Position numbers and translations under genes: made by a program. Shown piece after piece: positions 1 through 6,199 of a DNA stretch of 6,899 bases; the stretch's first letter is position 1; each line of letters begins with the position of its first letter. The notes beneath the pieces are model-generated. The model was not told the origin of the DNA and did no database searches. It saw only the letters and a program-made list of their open reading frames with translations. Source of the DNA: a virus (lineage: Duplodnaviria > Heunggongvirae > Uroviricota > Caudoviricetes); IMG/VR virus record IMGVR_UViG_2537561710_000007; one strand, given 5' to 3'.

Positions 1-121
1 CCCAGGCTGAGAAATTTCCTGAACCTTTCTGATCAAGAGCGATGTTAATTTGTTCAATCATTTGGTTAGGAAAGCGGATGTTGCGGGTTGTTGTTCTGCG
101 GGTTCTGTTCTTCGTTGACAT
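1..121 (-). CDS. Partial small prophage protein, YlcI/YnfO-like (DUF3950 family); N-terminal 40 codons only, C-terminus lies beyond the left window edge
   Basis: Minus-strand ATG is the reverse complement of 119-121. Translation MSTKNRTRRTTTRNIRFPNQMIEQINIALDQKGSGNFSAW stays open to position 1. From memory it closely resembles E. coli prophage proteins YlcI/YnfO, which sit next to the terminase small-subunit homologs of cryptic lambdoid prophages. Not in the ORF track because it is truncated. No strong SD (upstream on minus strand: acggggcaacctca). Confidence 0.55.
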   Translation of the reverse strand, partial: MSTKNRTRRTTTRNIRFPNQMIEQINIALDQKGSGNFSAW

Positions 122-284
122 GAGGTTGCCCCGTATTCAGTGTCGCTGATTTGTATTGTCTGAAGTTGTTTTTACGTTAAGTTGATGCAGATCAATTAAT
201 ACGATACCTGCGTCATAATTAATTATTTGACGTGGTTTGATGGCGTAGATGCACGTTGTGACATGTAGATGATAATTATTATCA

Positions 285-300
285 TTTTGCGGGTCCTTTC
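285..300. promoter_or_regulatory. cosQ: Putative cosQ-like element upstream of cosN (needed for packaging termination in lambda)
   Basis: Segment gcgggtcctttccggcgatccgacaggttacg (289-320) nearly matches the last ~30 bp of the lambda right end as I recall it. In lambda, cosQ is a short element a few tens of bp upstream of the nick site. Exact boundaries are not determinable from sequence alone. Confidence 0.35.
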
Positions 301-310
301 CGGCGATCCG

Positions 311-342
311 ACAGGTTACGGGGCGGCGACCTCGCGGGTTTT
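311..342. promoter_or_regulatory. cosN: cosN, the terminase nicking site; 12-nt cohesive-end sequence GGGCGGCGACCT at 321-332
   Basis: Directly seen: acaggttacg|GGGCGGCGACCT|cgcgggttttcgctatttatgaaaattttccgg. This matches the junction of the lambda right end (…gatccgacaggttacg) and left end (gggcggcgacctcgcgggttttcgctatttatgaaaattttccgg…). It lies about 185 bp upstream of the terminase small-subunit start, as in lambda. Confidence 0.85.
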
Positions 343-369
343 CGCTATTTATGAAAATTTTCCGGGATC

Positions 370-380
370 CATGTCCGGTT
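370..380 (-). repeat. R-site-like repeat copy 1 (inverted): catgtccggtt
   Basis: Exact reverse complement of the 11-mer AACCGGACATG found at 428-438 and 458-468. Confidence 0.6.
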
Positions 381-427
381 TCTCTTCAAGTTAACTATAT
401 GAAAAATATAAAAACAGGTCTTCTGTG

Positions 428-438
428 AACCGGACATG
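428..438 (+). repeat. R-site-like repeat copy 2: aaccggacatg
   Basis: Exact 11-mer match to copy 3; 30 bp centre to centre from copy 3. Confidence 0.6.
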
Positions 439-457
439 AACAAAAAACAGACATGTA

Positions 458-468
458 AACCGGACATG
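458..468 (+). repeat. R-site-like repeat copy 3: aaccggacatg, inside an imperfect 18-bp palindrome aaccggacatgaccggtt (458-475)
   Basis: Exact 11-mer match. The 18-mer differs from its own reverse complement at two positions. Confidence 0.6.
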
Positions 469-515
469 ACCGGTTTTGTTGTGATTGTGAGGTGAGAGTT
501 TTTGCGAGGTGAGGA

Positions 516-1025
516 GTGGCTACGCAGACTGAAGTTGCCAGGCATTTAAGTCTGACCGATCGCCAGCTTCGCAGATTGCAGAAATTGCCGGGTGCCCCGA
601 TATCGAATAAGCGAGGGCAACTGGATCTGGATGCCTGGCGCGATTTTTACATATCGTATCTGAGGAGAAGTAAAAACGATGTGCCTGATGGCGATAGCGA
701 AGACGACTATGAGGAGAAATTGCTTATTGCCAGATGGGAACTGACAGCAGAACAGGCTGTTACACAGCAGTTAAAAAATGAGGTGTCAAAAGGAAAACTG
801 ATTGACACCGGGTTCTGTATTTTTGCCCTCAGTAAGCTGGCAATGGCGTTATCCAGTACGCTTGATTCCATCCCTTTATCCATGCAGCGACAGTTTCCTG
901 ATTTAACACCGCGCCATCTTGACCATCTGAAAACCCTTATTGCTAAGGGGGCAAATCAGTGTGCGCGGGCAGGGGATAAATTACCGGATTTACTTGATGA
1001 ATATATCAGAGCAACAACTGAATAA
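516..1025 (+). CDS. nu1: Terminase small subunit, lambda Nu1-like (169 aa), GTG start
   Basis: ORF 516-1025. GTG at 516 is the first start codon after an in-frame stop, preceded by gaggtgaggag. The C-terminal half (TGFCIFALSKLAMALSSTLDSIPLSMQRQFPDLTPRHLDHL…LPDLLDEYI) aligns with the lambda Nu1 C-terminus (TAFCTFVLSRIAGEIASILDGLPLSVQRRFPELENRHVDFL…IPGLLSEYI). The N-terminus (EVARHLSLTDRQLRRL) looks like a helix-turn-helix but has low identity to lambda Nu1. It sits directly downstream of cos and overlaps the large-subunit start. Confidence 0.85.
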   Translation: MATQTEVARHLSLTDRQLRRLQKLPGAPISNKRGQLDLDAWRDFYISYLRRSKNDVPDGDSEDDYEEKLLIARWELTAEQAVTQQLKNEVSKGKLIDTGFCIFALSKLAMALSSTLDSIPLSMQRQFPDLTPRHLDHLKTLIAKGANQCARAGDKLPDLLDEYIRATTE

Positions 1026-2925
1026 TATGATGAGCGCTGTCACAACTGCATTACAGCCCCTGATAAGGGCATTGCCGGTGACGCCAGTTGAATGGGCTGA
1101 TCAAAATTATTATCTGCCTAAAGAATCTTCATATGGTGAGGGCGAATGGAAAACGCTGCCATTCCAGATCGCCATCATGAACAGTATGGGGAATGATCAG
1201 ATCCGCACTGTTAATCTGATTAAATCTGCCCGTGTTGGCTATACAAAGATGTTGCTGGGGGGGGGCGGGTATTTTATTGAGCATAAATCCCGAAACAGTC
1301 TGCTTTTTCAGCCCACGGATTCTGCCGCTGAAGATTTTATGAAGTCTCACGTGGAGGCGACGATTCGGAACGTGCCATGCCTGAAAGACCTTTCCCCATG
1401 GCTGGGTCGTAAACATCGTGACAATACTCTCACGCTGAAACGCTTTTCATCGGGCGTCGGTTTCTGGTGCCTGGGCGGCGCTGCCGCCAAAAACTACCGT
1501 GAAAAATCCGTTGACGTGGTCTGCTATGACGAACTTTCCTCGTTCGAGCCGGATGTCGAAAAAGAGGGCTCGCCAACCCTGCTGGGGGATAAGCGTATTG
1601 AGGGGTCGGTGTGGCCAAAATCCATTCGCGGCTCGACGCCTAAAATCAAAGGCACCTGCCAGATCGAAAAAGCCGCTAACGAGTCGGCGCATTTTATGCG
1701 TTTTTATGTGCCCTGCCCGCACTGTGGGGAGGCGCAGTATCTGAAATTTGGCGATGAGTCCACGCCTTTTGGGCTTAAATGGGAGAAGGACAGCCCTGAA
1801 AGTGTTTTCTACCTCTGTGAACATCATGGCTGCGTGATCCATCAGTCTGAACTGGACCAGAGCAACGGGCGGTGGATCTGTGAAAACACGGGCATGTGGA
1901 CCCGTGACGGTCTGACGTTTTTCAGCGCCCGGGGTGATGAAATTCCGCCGCCGCGCTCCATCATGTTCCATATCTGGACGGCGTACAGTCCGTTCACCAC
2001 CTGGGTACAGATTGTCTATGACTGGCTGGATGCACTGAAAGATCCCAACGGCCTGAAAACCTTTGTGAACACCACGCTGGGCGAGACCTGGGAAGAGGCC
2101 GTGGGCGAAAAACTCGATCACCAGGTACTGATGGATAAGGTGGTGCGTTACACGGCGGCGGTGCCTGCCCGGGTGGTTTATCTGACGGCGGGCATTGACT
2201 CGCAGCGAAACCGTTTTGAGATGTATGTCTGGGGATGGGCTCCGGGAGAGGAAGCCTTTCTGGTGGATAAAATCATCATTATGGGGCGTCCTGATGAGGA
2301 AGAGACGCTGTTACGTGTGGATGCGGCGATCAACAAAAAATACCGCCATGCGGATGGCACCGAAATGACTATTTCCCGTGTCTGCTGGGACACCGGGGGG
2401 ATCGATGGTGAAATTGTTTATCAGAGATCAAAAAAACACGGTGTTTTCCGGGTGCTGCCGGTAAAAGGCGCATCTGTCTATGGCAAGCCGGTGATCACCA
2501 TGCCAAAAACCCGCAATCAGCGGGGCGTGTATCTGTGTGAAGTGGGAACGGACACCGCAAAAGAAATTCTCTATGCCCGTATGAAAGCCGATCCCTCGCC
2601 TGCGGATGAAGCCACGTCGTATGCCATCCGTTTTCCTGATGATCCGGAGATTTTTTCGCAGACAGAGGCGCAGCAACTGGTGGCGGAAGAGCTGGTGGAG
2701 AAGTGGGAAAAAGGAAAGATGCGTCTGCTGTGGGATAACAAAAAGCGGCGTAACGAAGCGCTGGACTGCCTGGTGTATGCCTACGCGGCATTACGTGTGT
2801 CCGTGCAACGCTGGCAGCTTGATCTGGCTGTACTGGCAAAATCCCGGGAAGAAGAGACGACCCGGCCAACCCTGAAAGAACTGGCAGCGAAGCTGTCCGG
2901 AGGAGTGAATGGTTACAGTCGCTGA
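997..2925 (+). CDS. A: Terminase large subunit, lambda gpA-like (642 aa): packaging ATPase and cos endonuclease
   Basis: ATG at 997 gives MNISEQQLNN…, matching the lambda gpA N-terminus (MNISNSQVNRL…). Homology runs the full length (VEWADxNYYLPKES, KSARVGYT Walker-A-like at residues 76-83, VVCYDELSSF Walker-B-like, GSPTLLGDKRIEGSVWPKSIRGSTPK, CPHCGE…YLCEH, WTAYSPFTTWVQIV, FVNTTLGETWE, TAGIDSQ, ICWDTGGID, KKRRNEALDC). The ORF track extends upstream to 940, but that extension has no counterpart in gpA. It overlaps the Nu1 end by 29 nt. Confidence 0.93.
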   Translation: MNISEQQLNNMMSAVTTALQPLIRALPVTPVEWADQNYYLPKESSYGEGEWKTLPFQIAIMNSMGNDQIRTVNLIKSARVGYTKMLLGGGGYFIEHKSRNSLLFQPTDSAAEDFMKSHVEATIRNVPCLKDLSPWLGRKHRDNTLTLKRFSSGVGFWCLGGAAAKNYREKSVDVVCYDELSSFEPDVEKEGSPTLLGDKRIEGSVWPKSIRGSTPKIKGTCQIEKAANESAHFMRFYVPCPHCGEAQYLKFGDESTPFGLKWEKDSPESVFYLCEHHGCVIHQSELDQSNGRWICENTGMWTRDGLTFFSARGDEIPPPRSIMFHIWTAYSPFTTWVQIVYDWLDALKDPNGLKTFVNTTLGETWEEAVGEKLDHQVLMDKVVRYTAAVPARVVYLTAGIDSQRNRFEMYVWGWAPGEEAFLVDKIIIMGRPDEEETLLRVDAAINKKYRHADGTEMTISRVCWDTGGIDGEIVYQRSKKHGVFRVLPVKGASVYGKPVITMPKTRNQRGVYLCEVGTDTAKEILYARMKADPSPADEATSYAIRFPDDPEIFSQTEAQQLVAEELVEKWEKGKMRLLWDNKKRRNEALDCLVYAYAALRVSVQRWQLDLAVLAKSREEETTRPTLKELAAKLSGGVNGYSR

Positions 2926-3115: not shown

Positions 3116-4704
3116 AACGAACGCCTGTCCTGATTGATGTGAACGGCGTTCCGCTTCGTGAGAGTCTCAGCTACAACGGGGGCGGTGCAGGATTTGGCGG
3201 GCAAATGGCGGAGTGGTTGCCACCGGCGCAGAGTGCCGATGCGGCCCTGCTGCCCGCGTTGCGTCTGGGGAATGCCCGGGCAGATGATCTGGTGCGCAAT
3301 AACGGAATAGCGGCCAATGCGGTGGCACTGCATAAGGATCACATTGTCGGGCATATGTTTCTTATCAGCTACCGTCCGAACTGGCGCTGGCTGGGGATGC
3401 GGGAGACCGCAGCAAAAAGCTTTGTCGATGAGGTGGAGGCGGCCTGGTCGGAATACGCCGAAGGGATGTCTGGCGAGATCGACGTGGAAGGAAAACGCAC
3501 GTTCACGGAATTTATCCGTGAAGGTGTGGGCGTTCATGCGTTTAACGGCGAAATCTTTGTGCAGCCGGTCTGGGATACGGAAACCACGCAGTTATTCCGT
3601 ACGCGTTTTAAAGCCGTGAGTCCGAAACGGGTGGACACGCCAGGACACGGTATGGGGAACCGTTTTCTGCGGGCCGGGGTGGAGGTCGATCGATATGGCC
3701 GTGCCGTTGCGTACCATATCTGTGAGGATGATTTTCCTCGCTCCGGGAGTGGACGATGGGAACGGATCCCGCGTGAACTTCCCACCGGGCGTCCGGCCAT
3801 GCTGCATATTTTCGAGCCGGTGGAGGACGGGCAGACCCGTGGGGCCAACCAGTTTTACAGCGTCATGGAACGGCTGAAGATGCTCGATTCCCTGCAGGCA
3901 ACACAGCTTCAGTCGGCCATTGTGAAAGCCATGTATGCAGCGACGATTGAAAGTGACCTTGATACCGAAAAGGCCTTTGAATATATCGCCGGTGCGCCGC
4001 AGGGGCAGAAGGATAATCCGCTTATTAATATTCTGGAGAAGTTCTCCAGCTGGTATGACACGAATAACGTGACGCTGGGTGGTGTCAAAATTCCGCACCT
4101 TTTCCCCGGGGATGATCTGAAACTACAGACTGCGCAGGATTCAGACAATGGATTTTCGGCGCTTGAACAGGCGCTGCTGCGGTATATCGCCGCCGGTCTT
4201 GGCGTTTCCTACGAACAGTTGTCCCGTGATTACTCGAAGGTCAGTTATTCAAGTGCCAGGGCCTCTGCCAATGAGTCGTGGCGCTATTTTATGGGGCGGC
4301 GAAAATTTATTGCGGCCCGGCTGGCCACGCAGATGTTTTCCTACTGGCTGGAAGAGGCACTTCTTCGGGGGATTATCCGTCCGCCACGGGCGCGTTTTGA
4401 TTTTTATCAGGCGCGATCAGCCTGGTCACGGGCAGAGTGGATTGGTGCCGGAAGAATGGCCATTGACGGGCTCAAGGAGGTTCAGGAATCGGTGATGCGC
4501 ATTGAGGCCGGACTGAGCACGTATGAGAAAGAGCCGGCGCTGATGGGCGAGGATTATCAGGACATTTTCCGCCAGCAGGTCAGGGAATCTGCAGAGCGGC
4601 AAAAAGCCGGACTCTCACGTCCGGTGTGGATAGCGCAGGCGTATCAGCAGCAGATAGCGGAGAGTCGCAGGCCGGAAGAGGAGACAACACCCCGTGAGAC
4701 GTAA
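3112..4704 (+). CDS. B: Portal protein, lambda gpB-like (530 aa)
   Basis: ATG at 3112 overlaps the W stop as ATGA (3112-3115). Translation starts MKRTPVLIDVNGVPLRESLSYNGGGAGFGG…, which matches lambda gpB very closely over most of its length as far as I recall. Length is similar (lambda 533 aa) and gene order is conserved. Confidence 0.93.
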   Translation: MKRTPVLIDVNGVPLRESLSYNGGGAGFGGQMAEWLPPAQSADAALLPALRLGNARADDLVRNNGIAANAVALHKDHIVGHMFLISYRPNWRWLGMRETAAKSFVDEVEAAWSEYAEGMSGEIDVEGKRTFTEFIREGVGVHAFNGEIFVQPVWDTETTQLFRTRFKAVSPKRVDTPGHGMGNRFLRAGVEVDRYGRAVAYHICEDDFPRSGSGRWERIPRELPTGRPAMLHIFEPVEDGQTRGANQFYSVMERLKMLDSLQATQLQSAIVKAMYAATIESDLDTEKAFEYIAGAPQGQKDNPLINILEKFSSWYDTNNVTLGGVKIPHLFPGDDLKLQTAQDSDNGFSALEQALLRYIAAGLGVSYEQLSRDYSKVSYSSARASANESWRYFMGRRKFIAARLATQMFSYWLEEALLRGIIRPPRARFDFYQARSAWSRAEWIGAGRMAIDGLKEVQESVMRIEAGLSTYEKEPALMGEDYQDIFRQQVRESAERQKAGLSRPVWIAQAYQQQIAESRRPEEETTPRET

Positions 4705-6199
4705 TCTTTCACACATTATTGCCGCAGCATTCAATGAACCGCTGCTTCTGGAGCCCGCCTATGCGCGGGTTTTCTTTTGCGCGCTCGGGCGCGAGATGGG
4801 GGCAGCAAGTCTTTCGGTACCACAGCAGCAGGTACAGCTTGATGCTCCCGGAATGCTGGCTGAAACGGACGAGTACATGGCCGGAGGTAAACGACCGGCC
4901 CGTGTTTACCGGGTGGTGAACGGTATTGCTGTACTGCCGGTGACCGGCACGCTGGTGCACCGGCTGGGGGGTATGCGGCCATTTTCCGGAATGACAGGCT
5001 ATGACGGCATTGTCGCCTGTCTTCAGCAGGCAATGGCGGATAGCCAGGTGCGGGGCGTACTGCTGGACATTGACAGTCCGGGCGGGCAGGCCGCCGGCGC
5101 GTTTGACTGCGCTGACATGATTTACCGCCTCCGTCAGCAGAAGCCGGTCTGGGCACTGTGCAATGACACGGCCTGTTCTGCAGCCATGCTGCTGGCGTCG
5201 GCCTGCTCCCGACGGCTGGTTACCCAGACATCCCGTATCGGCTCCATTGGCGTGATGATGAGCCATGTCAGCTATGCCGGTCATCTGGCGCAGGCCGGTG
5301 TGGATATCACGCTGATTTACTCAGGGGCGCACAAGGTGGATGGCAATCAGTTTGAAGCCTTACCGGCAGAGGTTCGCCAGAACATGCAGCAGCGCATTGA
5401 TGCGGCGCGCCGGATGTTTGCCGAAAAAGTGGCCATGTTTACCGGTCTGTCTGTTGATGCCGTCACGGGAACAGAGGCCGCCGTTTTTGAAGGTCAGTCC
5501 GGCATTGATGCCGGGCTGGCGGATGAATTAGTCAATGCGTCGGATGCCATCAGTGTGATGGCCACGGCGCTGAACAGTAATGTCAGAGGAGGCACTATGC
5601 CGCAATTAACTGCAACGGAAGCCGCCGCGCAGGAGAACCAGCGAGTGATGGGGATCCTGACATGCCAGGAAGCGAAAGGACGTGAACAGCTTGCCACGAT
5701 GCTGGCAGGACAACAGGGCATGAGCGTTGAACAGGCCCGGGCGATTCTGGCCGCGGCGGCACCGCAGCAGCCGGTGGCATCCACGCAGAGTGAAGCCGAT
5801 CGCATTATGGCGTGTGAAGAAGCGAACGGTCGTGAACAACTGGCGGCAACGCTGGCGGCGATGCCGGAGATGACGGTGGAAAAAGCCCGCCCGATCCTGG
5901 CTGCTTCACCGCAGGCGGATGCCGGACCCTCACTCCGTGATCAGATCATGGCACTGGATGAGGCAAAAGGGGCTGAGGCGCAGGCTGAACAGCTGGCTGC
6001 CTGCCCGGGAATGACTGTGGAGAGCGCCCGGGCTGTGCTGGCTGCGGGATCAGGTAAGGCAGAACCGGTCTCTGCATCCACAACCGCCCTGTTTGAACGC
6101 ATCATGGCGAACCATTCACCGGCTGCGGTACAGGGTGGCGTGCCACAGACGTCAGCAGACGGTGATGCGGACGTGAAAATGCTCATGGCCATGCCATGA
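4694..6199 (+). CDS. C: Head maturation protease / scaffold fusion, lambda gpC-like (S49, ClpP-like serine peptidase domain plus C-terminal scaffold domain), 501 aa, GTG start
   Basis: N-terminal two thirds align with lambda gpC (AFNEPLLLEPAYARVFFCAL, NGIAVLPVTGTLV, SGMTGYDGI, GVLLDIDSPGG, GAFDCAD, KPVWALCND, LLASACSRRLVTQTSRIGSIGVMM, ITLIYSGAHKVDGN, TEAAVFEGQSGIDAGLADELVN). GTG at 4694 overlaps the portal end by 11 nt. The start codon choice is less certain than the gene call. Confidence 0.88.
   Translation: MRRNLSHIIAAAFNEPLLLEPAYARVFFCALGREMGAASLSVPQQQVQLDAPGMLAETDEYMAGGKRPARVYRVVNGIAVLPVTGTLVHRLGGMRPFSGMTGYDGIVACLQQAMADSQVRGVLLDIDSPGGQAAGAFDCADMIYRLRQQKPVWALCNDTACSAAMLLASACSRRLVTQTSRIGSIGVMMSHVSYAGHLAQAGVDITLIYSGAHKVDGNQFEALPAEVRQNMQQRIDAARRMFAEKVAMFTGLSVDAVTGTEAAVFEGQSGIDAGLADELVNASDAISVMATALNSNVRGGTMPQLTATEAAAQENQRVMGILTCQEAKGREQLATMLAGQQGMSVEQARAILAAAAPQQPVASTQSEADRIMACEEANGREQLAATLAAMPEMTVEKARPILAASPQADAGPSLRDQIMALDEAKGAEAQAEQLAACPGMTVESARAVLAAGSGKAEPVSASTTALFERIMANHSPAAVQGGVPQTSADGDADVKMLMAMP
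5597..6199 (+). CDS. nu3: Nested Nu3-like scaffolding protein (200 aa) from an internal in-frame start within the gpC-like gene
   Basis: ATG at 5597 is preceded by a strong SD (agaggagg at 5584-5591, about 5-nt spacing), in frame with the gpC-like ORF. In lambda, Nu3 is likewise encoded in the C frame from an internal start. The product begins MPQLTATEAAAQENQRVMGILTCQEAKGREQ…, comparable to the lambda Nu3 segment …NSRIMGILNCEEAHGREEQ…. Confidence 0.6.
   Translation: MPQLTATEAAAQENQRVMGILTCQEAKGREQLATMLAGQQGMSVEQARAILAAAAPQQPVASTQSEADRIMACEEANGREQLAATLAAMPEMTVEKARPILAASPQADAGPSLRDQIMALDEAKGAEAQAEQLAACPGMTVESARAVLAAGSGKAEPVSASTTALFERIMANHSPAAVQGGVPQTSADGDADVKMLMAMP

What the first reader, a model, noticed from the sequence alone, without database searches (positions are those of the whole stretch)
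366..700. Conserved cosN but different cosB repeats and Nu1 DNA-binding domain: probable altered packaging specificity
Identity to the lambda left end stops at position 366, exactly where the lambda R3 site would begin. From there the window carries three copies of AACCGGACATG (370-380 inverted, 428-438, 458-468) in place of lambda R sites. The Nu1-like protein keeps a lambda-like C-terminal half, which in lambda contacts gpA, but has a dissimilar N-terminal HTH region (MATQTEVARHLSLTDRQLRRLQKLPGAP…). This is the pattern expected when cosB and its cognate small-subunit recognition domain are exchanged together, as in the known lambda versus phage 21 specificity difference. The repeat is a candidate recognition sequence for this terminase.
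Basis: partly seen in the sequence, partly recalled or inferred. Interest (0 to 1): 0.6.

Follow-up and report, generated by a model that had tools for sequence, protein, structure and literature searches.

The report
Fourth lambda-type DNA packaging recognition site
This prophage has lambda's DNA-cutting site, but next to it are different repeated recognition sequences and a matching, highly diverged DNA-binding domain on the small terminase subunit; this is very probably an undescribed but common packaging specificity, working the same way as those of lambda, 21 and N15.

Summary
The window is identical to the lambda left end for bases 1-45 only (window 321-365). After that come three exact AACCGGACATG copies (370-380 inverted, 428-438, 458-468).

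The small terminase (TerS, 516-1025) matches Pfam Phage_Nu1 only over residues 49-150. Its N-terminal domain is predicted to be a winged helix-turn-helix whose nearest solved structures are lambda TerS DNA-binding domains.

- In relatives from Klebsiella, Salmonella, Citrobacter and Enterobacter, TCCGGTT starts 53-55 bp from the cohesive end and inverted AACCGGA at 107-109, with an IHF-like site between. In Aeromonas, Pseudomonas and Azospirillum relatives TCCGGTT lies 46-62 bp from the end where cosQ is found, without the upstream inverted copy.
- These are the only invariant blocks in cosB.
- Prophages with a similar TerS C-terminal half and large terminase (TerL) but an N15-type or lambda/21-type N-terminal domain carry their own repeats at the same positions.
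- TerS residue 20 (Arg or not) tracks the base 5' of TCCGGTT (G or T) in 43 of 43 non-redundant pairs.

Same mechanism as lambda; new recognition sequence. The module is in 1171 of 5426 complete E. coli genomes, including O157:H7. Binding and packaging remain untested.

The parts
291..297 (+). cosQ (GGGTCCT), the packaging termination signal
   Evidence: Same sequence and same 30-bp offset from cohesive-end base 1 as in lambda. Invariant in 14 enterobacterial relatives and present in most distant relatives.
321..332 (+). cosN: the 12-base cohesive-end sequence GGGCGGCGACCT (base 1 = window 321)
   Evidence: Identical to lambda. Cleavage itself was not tested.
321..365 (+). Segment identical to lambda bases 1-45 (cosN plus the spacer up to cosB). 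A mosaic junction lies at 365/366.
   Evidence: Exact run of 45 bases. Window 1-365 is 96-98% identical to lambda, Turner and 2H10, and the match ends at 365.
370..380 (+). R3-equivalent TerS binding site CATGTCCGGTT (cohesive-end bases 50-60; conserved core TCCGGTT at 54-60)
   Evidence: Exact repeat. Invariant in 39 close variants. The core starts at base 53-55 in all 10 enterobacterial loci in the position table and is invariant in the 14-locus footprint.
392..404 (-). Candidate IHF site (I1 equivalent), TAACTATATGAAA on the + strand
   Evidence: 2 mismatches to WATCAANNNNTTR, the same quality and position as the corresponding lambda sequence TAACTTAATGTTT. Relatives L100, L101, L102 and L107 have a perfect consensus at this place (read by eye).
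428..438 (+). R2-equivalent site AACCGGACATG, inverted relative to R3 (bases 108-118)
   Evidence: Exact repeat. AACCGGA starts at base 107-109 in all 10 enterobacterial loci in the position table, always 54 bp after the R3 core. Near-invariant in close variants.
445..455 (+). Degenerate copy AAACAGACATG; probably not functional
   Evidence: 2 mismatches. These columns vary freely among close variants.
458..475 (.). R1-equivalent: exact copy AACCGGACATG (458-468, same orientation as R2) overlapping a 1-mismatch copy in the R3 orientation (465-475). Together they form the quasi-palindrome AAACCGGACATGACCGGTTT.
   Evidence: 458-468 is near-invariant in close variants. The 465-475 half is disrupted by an insertion in 5 of 39 variants. 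A third copy is present in only 4 of the 10 enterobacterial loci first compared (WIN, L001, L100, L105) and also in L246, so it is probably accessory, like lambda R1.
516..1025 (+). terS: small terminase subunit, 169 aa, GTG start
   Evidence: Pfam Phage_Nu1 67.9 bits over residues 49-150. PHROG 57 'terminase small subunit' matches full length. Annotated as terminase small subunit in RefSeq.
516..680 (+). TerS N-terminal DNA-binding domain (residues 1-55). Predicted winged helix-turn-helix: helix 4-10, recognition helix 15-22 (nt 558-581), wing 23-37, helix 38-54.
   Evidence: AlphaFold2 model of the domain, pLDDT 83. Top Foldseek hits are lambda TerS DNA-binding domains 7lw0_A and 6hn7_B (TM 0.59-0.72), identified as lambda TerS.
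997..2925 (+). terL: large terminase subunit (gpA homolog), overlapping the end of terS
   Evidence: Pfam GpA_ATPase and GpA_nuclease. Start taken from the PhiR12_1 annotation. 66% identical to lambda gpA; the first 380 aa are 84% identical to the phage 21 type.

Best explanation
Window 366-480 is the cosB subsite of a lambda-type cos site. It belongs to a packaging-recognition class distinct from lambda, 21 and N15.

Proposed mechanism (inferred by analogy with lambda):
- The N-terminal winged helix-turn-helix of TerS binds as a dimer to the R3-equivalent site (CATGTCCGGTT, 50-60 bp from the cohesive end).
- It also binds the inverted R2-equivalent site (bases 108-118).
- The two sites are brought together by an IHF-induced bend at the AT-rich site between them.
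- This anchors TerL, held through the TerS C-terminal part, to nick the unchanged cosN.
- The third copy (458-475) is accessory.

Recognition is centred on TCCGGTT. The base 5' of it (G here) is probably read by Arg20 of the recognition helix.

What is shown: the anatomy, the conservation, the positional constraint, the co-variation with the TerS domain, and the predicted fold.

What is inferred: binding, IHF dependence and packaging specificity.
For: Repeats are real and non-random.

Conservation among close variants. Among 39 distinct close variants, 5 of 33 repeat columns vary, against 64 of 102 other cosB columns (Fisher p = 2e-6).

Footprint. Across 14 enterobacterial loci the only invariant blocks in cosB are TCCGGTT, AACCGGA, and the near-invariant TG(A) of the IHF-like site (at most 2 of 14 loci differ).

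Fixed geometry. TCCGGTT starts at base 53-55 and AACCGGA at 107-109 in all 10 enterobacterial loci. This parallels lambda R3 (contacts at bp 55-63) and N15 R3 (bp 48-59) (PMC4669245, PMC9026076).

Unbiased 7-mer count. TCCGGTT is the most shared 7-mer upstream of terS, present in 16 of 22 loci with this TerS N-terminal type. The maximum over 200 shuffles is 6. It occurs in 1 of 6 control loci.

Distant relatives. Aeromonas phage phiARM81ld has CATTTCCGGTT at bases 52-62 and an exact inverted copy at 251-261 inside terS. This mirrors the N15 R3/rR2 layout.

Controls. Loci with N15/Monarch-type or lambda/21-type domains on a similar TerS C-half and TerL background carry GGTGGTTGTTGT or AGATCCGTTCTT repeats at the same positions.

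Amino acid/base covariation. Residue 20 Arg pairs with G, and other residues (N, D, S, T, K, E) pair with T, in 43 of 43 non-redundant helix/site pairs. This includes a separate lineage, L249.

Fold. The closest solved structures to the domain model are lambda TerS DNA-binding domains.

Viability. The same module occurs in records deposited as phage genomes propagated on laboratory strains (PhiR12_1 to PhiR12_5).
Against: - There is no binding or packaging experiment.
- Foldseek E-values are not significant (0.65-1.4), as expected for a 58-residue domain, and the hhalign probability against lambda/21-type domains is only 21%.
- The exact third copy has the R2 orientation, unlike lambda R1. The copy in the R3 orientation has a mismatch and is lost in some variants.
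- The IHF-like site in this window has 2 mismatches to the consensus.
- The covariation counts are not phylogenetically independent; at least two independent events are visible, not 43.
- The left half of the site (CATGTC) resembles the phage 21 R sites, so some cross-recognition with 21 cannot be excluded.
Confidence: 0.85

Rival explanations
1. This is the same mechanism but not a new specificity. The terminase and cosB share, or substantially overlap with, phage 21 specificity, because the sites share CATGTC and the equivalent helix position is Arg in both.
For: Phage 21-type cosB has CGTGTCGG at bases 53-60, inverted CCGACATG at 111-118 and CATGTCGG at 154. The window has CATGTCCGG at 50-58 and CCGGACATG at 110-118.

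The window's TerL is 84% identical to the 21 type.

Against: - The part of the site conserved across the whole family, CCGGTT, is absent from the 21 sites (TCGGTAC, TCGGACC, TCGGGCC).
- The extra C shifts the register.
- The DNA-binding domains are about 19% identical, and the hhalign probability is 21%.
Confidence: 0.1
2. The repeats are not terminase sites. They are operators for another regulator, or hairpin or terminator elements upstream of the late head operon.
For: The consensus scan flags 457-476 and 362-378 as weak terminator-like hairpins. A PerC-family regulator gene lies upstream in the O157 copy.
Against: - The sites keep a fixed distance from the cohesive end, not from the terS start codon, which varies from 144 to 195 bp.
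- They change with the TerS N-terminal domain type and with residue 20 of its helix.
- The hairpin at 457-476 is not conserved in relatives.
- The layout copies the experimentally defined lambda, 21 and N15 cosB layouts (PMC4669245).
Confidence: 0.03
3. The elements are a relic in a defective prophage. The sequence features are inherited, but this copy no longer packages DNA.
For: O157:H7 carries many defective lambdoid prophages. The terL of this window has an unusual G9 run coding GGGG where relatives have GVVG or GVAG. The 86-24 copy is annotated as frameshifted in several head genes.
Against: - All head ORFs in the window are intact.
- The repeats are under visible constraint among close variants.
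- The 96% identical module is present in the deposited phages PhiR12_1 to PhiR12_5.
- This rival concerns only this copy, not the nature of the element.
Confidence: 0.15

Closest known systems
Phage lambda cos and terminase (cosQ-cosN-cosB with R3-I1-R2-R1; gpNu1/gpA)
   Same: - cosQ, cosN and the first 45 bp are identical.
- The cosB layout matches: a site about 50-60 bp from the end, an IHF-like site, then an inverted site about 55-60 bp further on, then an optional third site.
- TerS has a predicted winged helix-turn-helix at the N-terminus and a Nu1-type C-terminal part.
- TerL is a gpA homolog.
   Different: - The repeat sequence is CATGTCCGGTT, against CGTTTCCTTTCT in lambda.
- The TerS N-terminal domain is not matched by the Pfam Nu1 profile and is about 15% identical in structural alignments.
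- The wing is shorter.
- The exact third copy is in the R2 orientation.
- Head proteins are only 54-66% identical (TerS C-terminal half 46%).
Phage 21 packaging specificity (gp1/gp2, R sites CRTGTCGG)
   Same: - cosQ and cosN are identical.
- The cosB geometry is the same: the R2 sites occupy the same bases, 110-118.
- The left half of the site, CATGTC, is shared.
- There is an Arg at the equivalent helix position (21 in phage 21; 20 here, by the hhalign register).
- TerL is 84% identical.
   Different: - The family-wide core CCGGTT is absent from the 21 sites.
- The DNA-binding domains are about 19% identical.
- The TerS C-terminal half is only 40% identical.
N15 / Monarch packaging specificity (simple and complex cosB forms; Feiss et al. 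2015, PMC4669245)
   Same: This family also has both forms. The complex form (R3-I1-R2, with or without R1) is found in enterobacterial prophages. The simple form (R3 just before terS, with an inverted copy about 200 bp downstream inside terS) is found in Aeromonas and Pseudomonas relatives.

N15/Monarch-type domains are found fused to the same kind of TerS C-terminal half as in this window.
   Different: The repeat sequence (GGTTGTTGTT in N15/Monarch) and the recognition helix are unrelated.
PICI cos sites read by Rpp-TerS heterodimers (Fillol-Salom 2019, PMC6739421; Murialdo and Feiss 2022, PMC9026076)
   Same: cosQ and cosN are conserved, with a different cosB read by a Nu1-like winged helix-turn-helix. 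RppC (6hlk) and lambda TerS in the complex (6hn7_B) are among the closest structural matches to the model.
   Different: Here the new recognition domain is part of the phage's own TerS, with a full set of head genes. It is not a separate hijacking protein on an island.

Membership tests
Lambda-type cos site | 12-base 5' cohesive-end sequence (cosN) related to GGGCGGCGACCT | tested here: met
   Identical 12-mer at 321-332. Actual nicking was not tested.
Lambda-type cos site | cosQ (GGGTCCT) about 30 bp upstream of the nick site | tested here: met
   GGGTCCT at 291-297, invariant in relatives.
Lambda-type cos site | cosB with repeated TerS sites: R3 about 50-65 bp from the end, R2 inverted, and R1 beyond | tested here: met
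   Copies at bases 50-60, 108-118 (inverted) and 138-148. The orientation of the exact third copy differs from lambda R1; a 1-mismatch copy in the lambda R1 orientation overlaps it.
Lambda-type cos site | IHF binding site (I1) between R3 and R2 | tested here: inconclusive
   392-404 has 2 mismatches to WATCAANNNNTTR, the same as the corresponding lambda sequence. Four relatives have a perfect match. No binding data.
Lambda-type cos site | TerS binds the R sites, and this is needed for accurate cosN nicking | not testable with these tools
   Needs EMSA or footprinting and cos-cleavage or packaging assays.
Nu1-family small terminase (Pfam PF07471) | Match to the family profile above the gathering score | tested here: met
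   67.9 bits against a cut-off of 30, but only residues 49-150 aligned to profile positions 62-163. The N-terminal 61 profile positions are unmatched.
Nu1-family small terminase (Pfam PF07471) | N-terminal winged helix-turn-helix DNA-binding domain of the gpNu1 type | tested here: inconclusive
   AlphaFold2 domain model, pLDDT 83, with helix-turn-helix-wing-helix topology. Best Foldseek hits are lambda TerS domains (7lw0_A TM 0.59; 6hn7_B TM 0.72, rmsd 2.5), but E-values are 0.65-1.4. hhalign probability 21%.
Lambda packaging specificity | R sites CGTTTCC(T/G)TTCT and recognition helix SIRTIQNWQEQ | tested here: not met
   No such sites after base 45, and the helix is TDRQLRRLQK.
Phage 21 packaging specificity | R sites C(A/G)TGTCGG and recognition helix DPRTIERWQSQ | tested here: not met
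   The sites share CATGTC but continue CGGTT rather than GG(N)CC. The N-terminal domain is 19% identical.
N15/Monarch packaging specificity | R sites GGTTGTTGTT and N-terminus MAVLLNKSDMA... | tested here: not met
   Absent from the window. Present in control loci L109 and L111.

The most novel reading that the evidence does not exclude
The family offers a natural, readable recognition rule. Arg at TerS residue 20 specifies G, and Asn, Asp or other residues specify T, at the base immediately 5' of TCCGGTT.

The same N-to-R and T-to-G difference separates lambda from phage 21 at the equivalent helix and site positions. This would mean the diverged domain docks in the same register as gpNu1.

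The family would then contain at least two mutually discriminating sub-specificities (ATG-TCCGGTT and AT/CT-TCCGGTT). Co-resident prophages in one E. coli genome that share a sub-type (median two copies per carrying genome) could cross-initiate packaging at each other's cos, mobilising defective prophages and adjacent host DNA.
Probability: 0.4. Interest if true: 0.55.

Novelty: new member of a known kind. Interest (0 to 1): 0.4.

Why it matters
Only three packaging specificities (lambda, 21, N15) have been documented among lambda-like cos phages. Feiss and colleagues noted that these do not show how far specificity swapping can go (PMC4669245).

This module is a further class with these properties:
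- Its DNA-binding domain is diverged beyond the Pfam Nu1 profile.
- It has a clearly defined site (TCCGGTT core).
- It exists in both complex and simple cosB forms.
- It ranges from Enterobacteriaceae to Aeromonas, Pseudomonas and Azospirillum.

It is present in about a fifth of complete E. coli genomes, often in several copies, including O157:H7. It therefore bears on which resident prophages can package or interfere with one another.

The Arg/G covariation gives a direct, cheap experiment on how a terminase reads its site. It is not a new mechanism.

Tried and rejected
- **Literature search for the motif** (CATGTCCGGTT, any position in a word). 13 papers were found; the 10 listed are unrelated to phage packaging. 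Searches for cosB with O157, and for the PhiR12 phage names, gave nothing relevant.
- **Reverse search from DNA to protein** (TCCGGTT, gap of 45-49, AACCGGA, in viral contigs). 22 of about 121 matches lay upstream of this TerS type, all with the 47-bp gap, and they added little diversity.
- **First viral-contig scan with the domain alignment.** It returned only 97-98% identical copies. These were useful for the constraint test but not for diversity.
- **Profile search of solved structures by sequence.** It found nothing meaningful. The relation to gpNu1 appears only at the fold level.
- **NCBIfam** has no model for this protein.
- **The 445-455 degenerate copy as a functional site.** Rejected, because it is not conserved.
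- **A foreign (non-Nu1) origin for the N-terminal domain.** Rejected as the leading reading. The best structural matches are lambda TerS domains, and the hhalign alignment puts the helix-turn-helix in register. The support is weak, however.

Full report
**What the window is**

The window is the cos junction of a lambdoid prophage. It holds the end of the lysis-side arm (1-320), cosQ (291-297), cosN (321-332), a non-coding stretch, and then terS, terL, W, portal, protease/scaffold and decoration genes.

It is 99.9% identical to a prophage of E. coli O157:H7 strain 86-24. Positions 340-700 are found in 1171 of 5426 complete E. coli genomes, usually in two copies. Among deposited phage genomes, only PhiR12_1 to PhiR12_5 carry the same module, at 96% nucleotide identity.

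**The observation**

Identity to the lambda left end is exact for bases 1-45 (window 321-365) and stops at 366. The whole of window 1-365 is 96-98% identical to lambda and its close relatives, and the match ends at the same point. There is therefore a sharp mosaic junction between cosN and cosB.

The lambda R3 core begins 7 bp further on, so 'exactly where R3 would begin' is approximate.

The 11-mer AACCGGACATG is exact at 370-380 (inverted), 428-438 and 458-468. Weaker copies lie at 465-475 (inverted, 1 mismatch) and 445-455 (2 mismatches). No shuffle out of 200 gives as many hits.

TerS (516-1025) matches Pfam Phage_Nu1 only over residues 49-150. Residues 73-164 are 46% identical to lambda Nu1, and the N-terminal part has no match.

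**Are the repeats under constraint?**

Among 39 distinct close variants from viral contigs, 5 of 33 repeat columns vary, against 64 of 102 other columns between 366 and 500 (Fisher p = 2e-6; the sequences are related, so this is indicative).
- The 445-455 copy varies freely.
- The 465-475 half-site is broken by an insertion in five variants.

**Relatives with the same TerS N-terminal domain**

Protein searches show a family beginning MATQxEVA. Its C-terminal half is also found joined to N15/Monarch-type (MAVLLNKSDMA) and lambda/21-type (MKVNKK) N-termini. I fetched loci from Klebsiella, Salmonella, Citrobacter, Enterobacter and a divergent E. coli variant.

| Feature | Finding |
|---|---|
| TCCGGTT start | base 53-55 from the cohesive end in every locus |
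| Inverted AACCGGA start | base 107-109, always 54 bp after the R3 core |
| Distance from cohesive end to terS start | varies from 144 to 195 bp |
| IHF-type site between the two (YAANNNNTTGATW) | perfect in four loci; 2 mismatches in the window, as in lambda |
| Third copy | present in 4 of the 10 loci first compared, and also in L246 |

A footprint across 14 such loci leaves few conserved blocks in cosB. TCCGGTT and AACCGGA are invariant. The TG(A) of the IHF-like site is near-invariant, with at most 2 of 14 loci differing.

**Distant relatives**

A genome scan found the same N-terminal domain in Aeromonas, Pseudomonas, Azospirillum and several metagenome-assembled genomes. Nine of these 13 loci have a lambda-like cosQ.
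- Most have TTCCGGTTCCGGTT or a close variant just upstream of terS.
- Aeromonas phage phiARM81ld has CATTTCCGGTT at bases 52-62 and its exact inverted copy at 251-261 inside terS.
- N15 has the same layout, with R3 at 48-59 and rR2 at 249-260 (PMC4669245).

An unbiased count shows TCCGGTT is the most widely shared 7-mer in the 150 bp upstream of terS. It occurs in 16 of 22 loci, against a maximum of 6 in shuffles, and in 1 of 6 controls.

**Controls**

Loci L109 and L111 have an N15/Monarch-type domain. Their TerS C-terminal half is 66-68% identical, and their TerL 84-86% identical, to the window. They carry GGTGGTTGTTGT at bases 48-60, its inverse near 108, and a third copy at 185.

L110 has a lambda/21-like domain, with a C-terminal half 71% and TerL 85% identical to the window. 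It carries AGATCCGTTCTT at base 53 and its inverse at 106.

None of the three has the CCGG motif.

Conversely, the loci whose N-terminal recognition helix (RQLRRLQK) and site (ATGTCCGGTT) match the window's, from Citrobacter and Enterobacter, have the more distant TerL (69%).

cosB and the N-terminal domain therefore travel together, and independently of the rest of the terminase.

**Fine covariation**

In 43 non-redundant combinations of helix and site, residue 20 is Arg exactly when the base 5' of TCCGGTT is G (7 cases). One of these, L249, is a lineage whose helix otherwise resembles the Pseudomonas group. Residue 20 is N, D, S, T, K or E when the base is T (36 cases).

The counts are not independent; at least two separate changes are visible.

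Residue 20 lies on the predicted recognition helix (residues 15-22). By the hhalign register it corresponds to lambda residue 21:
- Lambda has Asn there, with T at the matching site position (CGTT|TCC).
- Phage 21 has Arg there, with G (CRTG|TCGG).

This parallel is an inference resting on a weak alignment.

**The N-terminal domain**

Sequence similarity to lambda/21 domains is marginal (hhalign probability 21%, E = 0.001, helix-turn-helix in register).

The AlphaFold2 model of residues 1-58 (pLDDT 83) has the topology helix, turn, helix, wing, helix. Its nearest solved structures are:
- the lambda TerS DNA-binding domain 7lw0_A (rank 1, TM 0.59);
- lambda TerS in the RppC complex, 6hn7_B (TM 0.72, rmsd 2.5 over 59 columns);
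- excisionases, RacA, BldC and MerR-family regulators.

E-values are not significant, as is usual for so short a domain. I read it as a very diverged Nu1-type domain rather than a foreign one.

**Comparison with known systems**

The mechanism I propose is the lambda one. Dimeric TerS binds R3 and inverted R2 across an IHF bend and positions TerL on cosN (PMC4669245, PMC9026076).

Membership in the lambda-type cos family is met for cosQ, cosN and the cosB layout. It is inconclusive for IHF and untestable here for binding.

The lambda, 21 and N15 specificities are each not met at the level of site and helix.

The site shares its left half (CATGTC) and its R2 position with phage 21, and TerL is of the 21 type (84%). 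Partial cross-recognition with 21 is therefore the main rival. The family-wide core CCGGTT is missing from the 21 sites, which argues against it.

**Novelty**

The protein is annotated as a small terminase subunit everywhere, and PHROG 57 covers it. I found no paper describing this cosB or its motif in the searchable library. The library lacks most subscription journals, so an earlier description cannot be excluded.

It is a new member of a known kind: a further recognition class of lambda-type terminases. It is common and has a clean natural covariation that invites a simple experiment.

Noticed in passing
window 1257-1265 (in terL): There is a run of nine G, coding GGGG, just after the KSARVGYT segment. 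More than 70 related loci have GVVG or GVAG here. Three related loci differ from the window by one G: two viral-contig loci have ten G and L112 has eight. The strain 86-24 copy (L112) is annotated as frameshifted. This is either a slippage-prone tract or a source of assembly errors.
   Followed up: partly
window 365/366: There is a sharp mosaic junction. Window 1-365 is 96-98% identical to lambda, Turner and 2H10. To the right, the head genes are only 54-66% identical to lambda at protein level, while TerL is 84% identical to the phage 21 type. The conserved cosQ-cosN block looks like a recombination linker between the lysis and head modules.
   Followed up: partly
window 457-476: The third site is a quasi-palindrome, AAACCGGACATGACCGGTTT: two half-sites 11 bp apart in inverted orientation. 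The consensus scan also flags it as a weak terminator-like hairpin. The palindrome is not conserved in other genera and is broken in 5 of 39 close variants.
   Followed up: partly
L004 (phiARM81ld) 52-62 and 251-261; L007; L009: Aeromonas and Pseudomonas members have a 'simple' cosB: one site just before terS, plus an exact or near-exact inverted copy about 172 bp into terS. This independently mirrors the R3/rR2 arrangement described for N15.
   Followed up: partly
lambda bases 41-47 (L002); window 361-365: Lambda itself has TCCGGTT at bases 41-47, in the spacer before its own R3. The window's identity to lambda ends inside this motif (TTCCGG|GATCC). This may be chance, a microhomology used in recombination, or a relic site.
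   Followed up: no
window 1-121, minus strand: The start of a minus-strand gene, MSTKNRTRRTTTRNIRFPNQMIEQINIALDQKGSGNFSAW..., runs off the left end of the window. It is annotated as a YlcI/YnfO family protein in the O157 copy.
   Followed up: partly
window 345-545, minus strand: A 66-aa ORF lies across cosB. In PhiR12_1 a shorter minus-strand 'hypothetical protein' CDS is annotated over the same non-coding stretch (equivalent to window 345-467). Some O157 RefSeq records also list 'hypothetical protein' for 340-700, where others say terminase small subunit. Given the repeat structure, an ORF here is most likely a spurious call.
   Followed up: no
window 4694-6199: The gpC (S49 peptidase/scaffold) homolog is 62 residues longer than lambda C. 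By eye it contains three repeats of about 35 residues (…EAKGREQLA…VEQARAILAA…) in its C-terminal part. Tandem Repeats Finder did not detect them at the DNA level.
   Followed up: no
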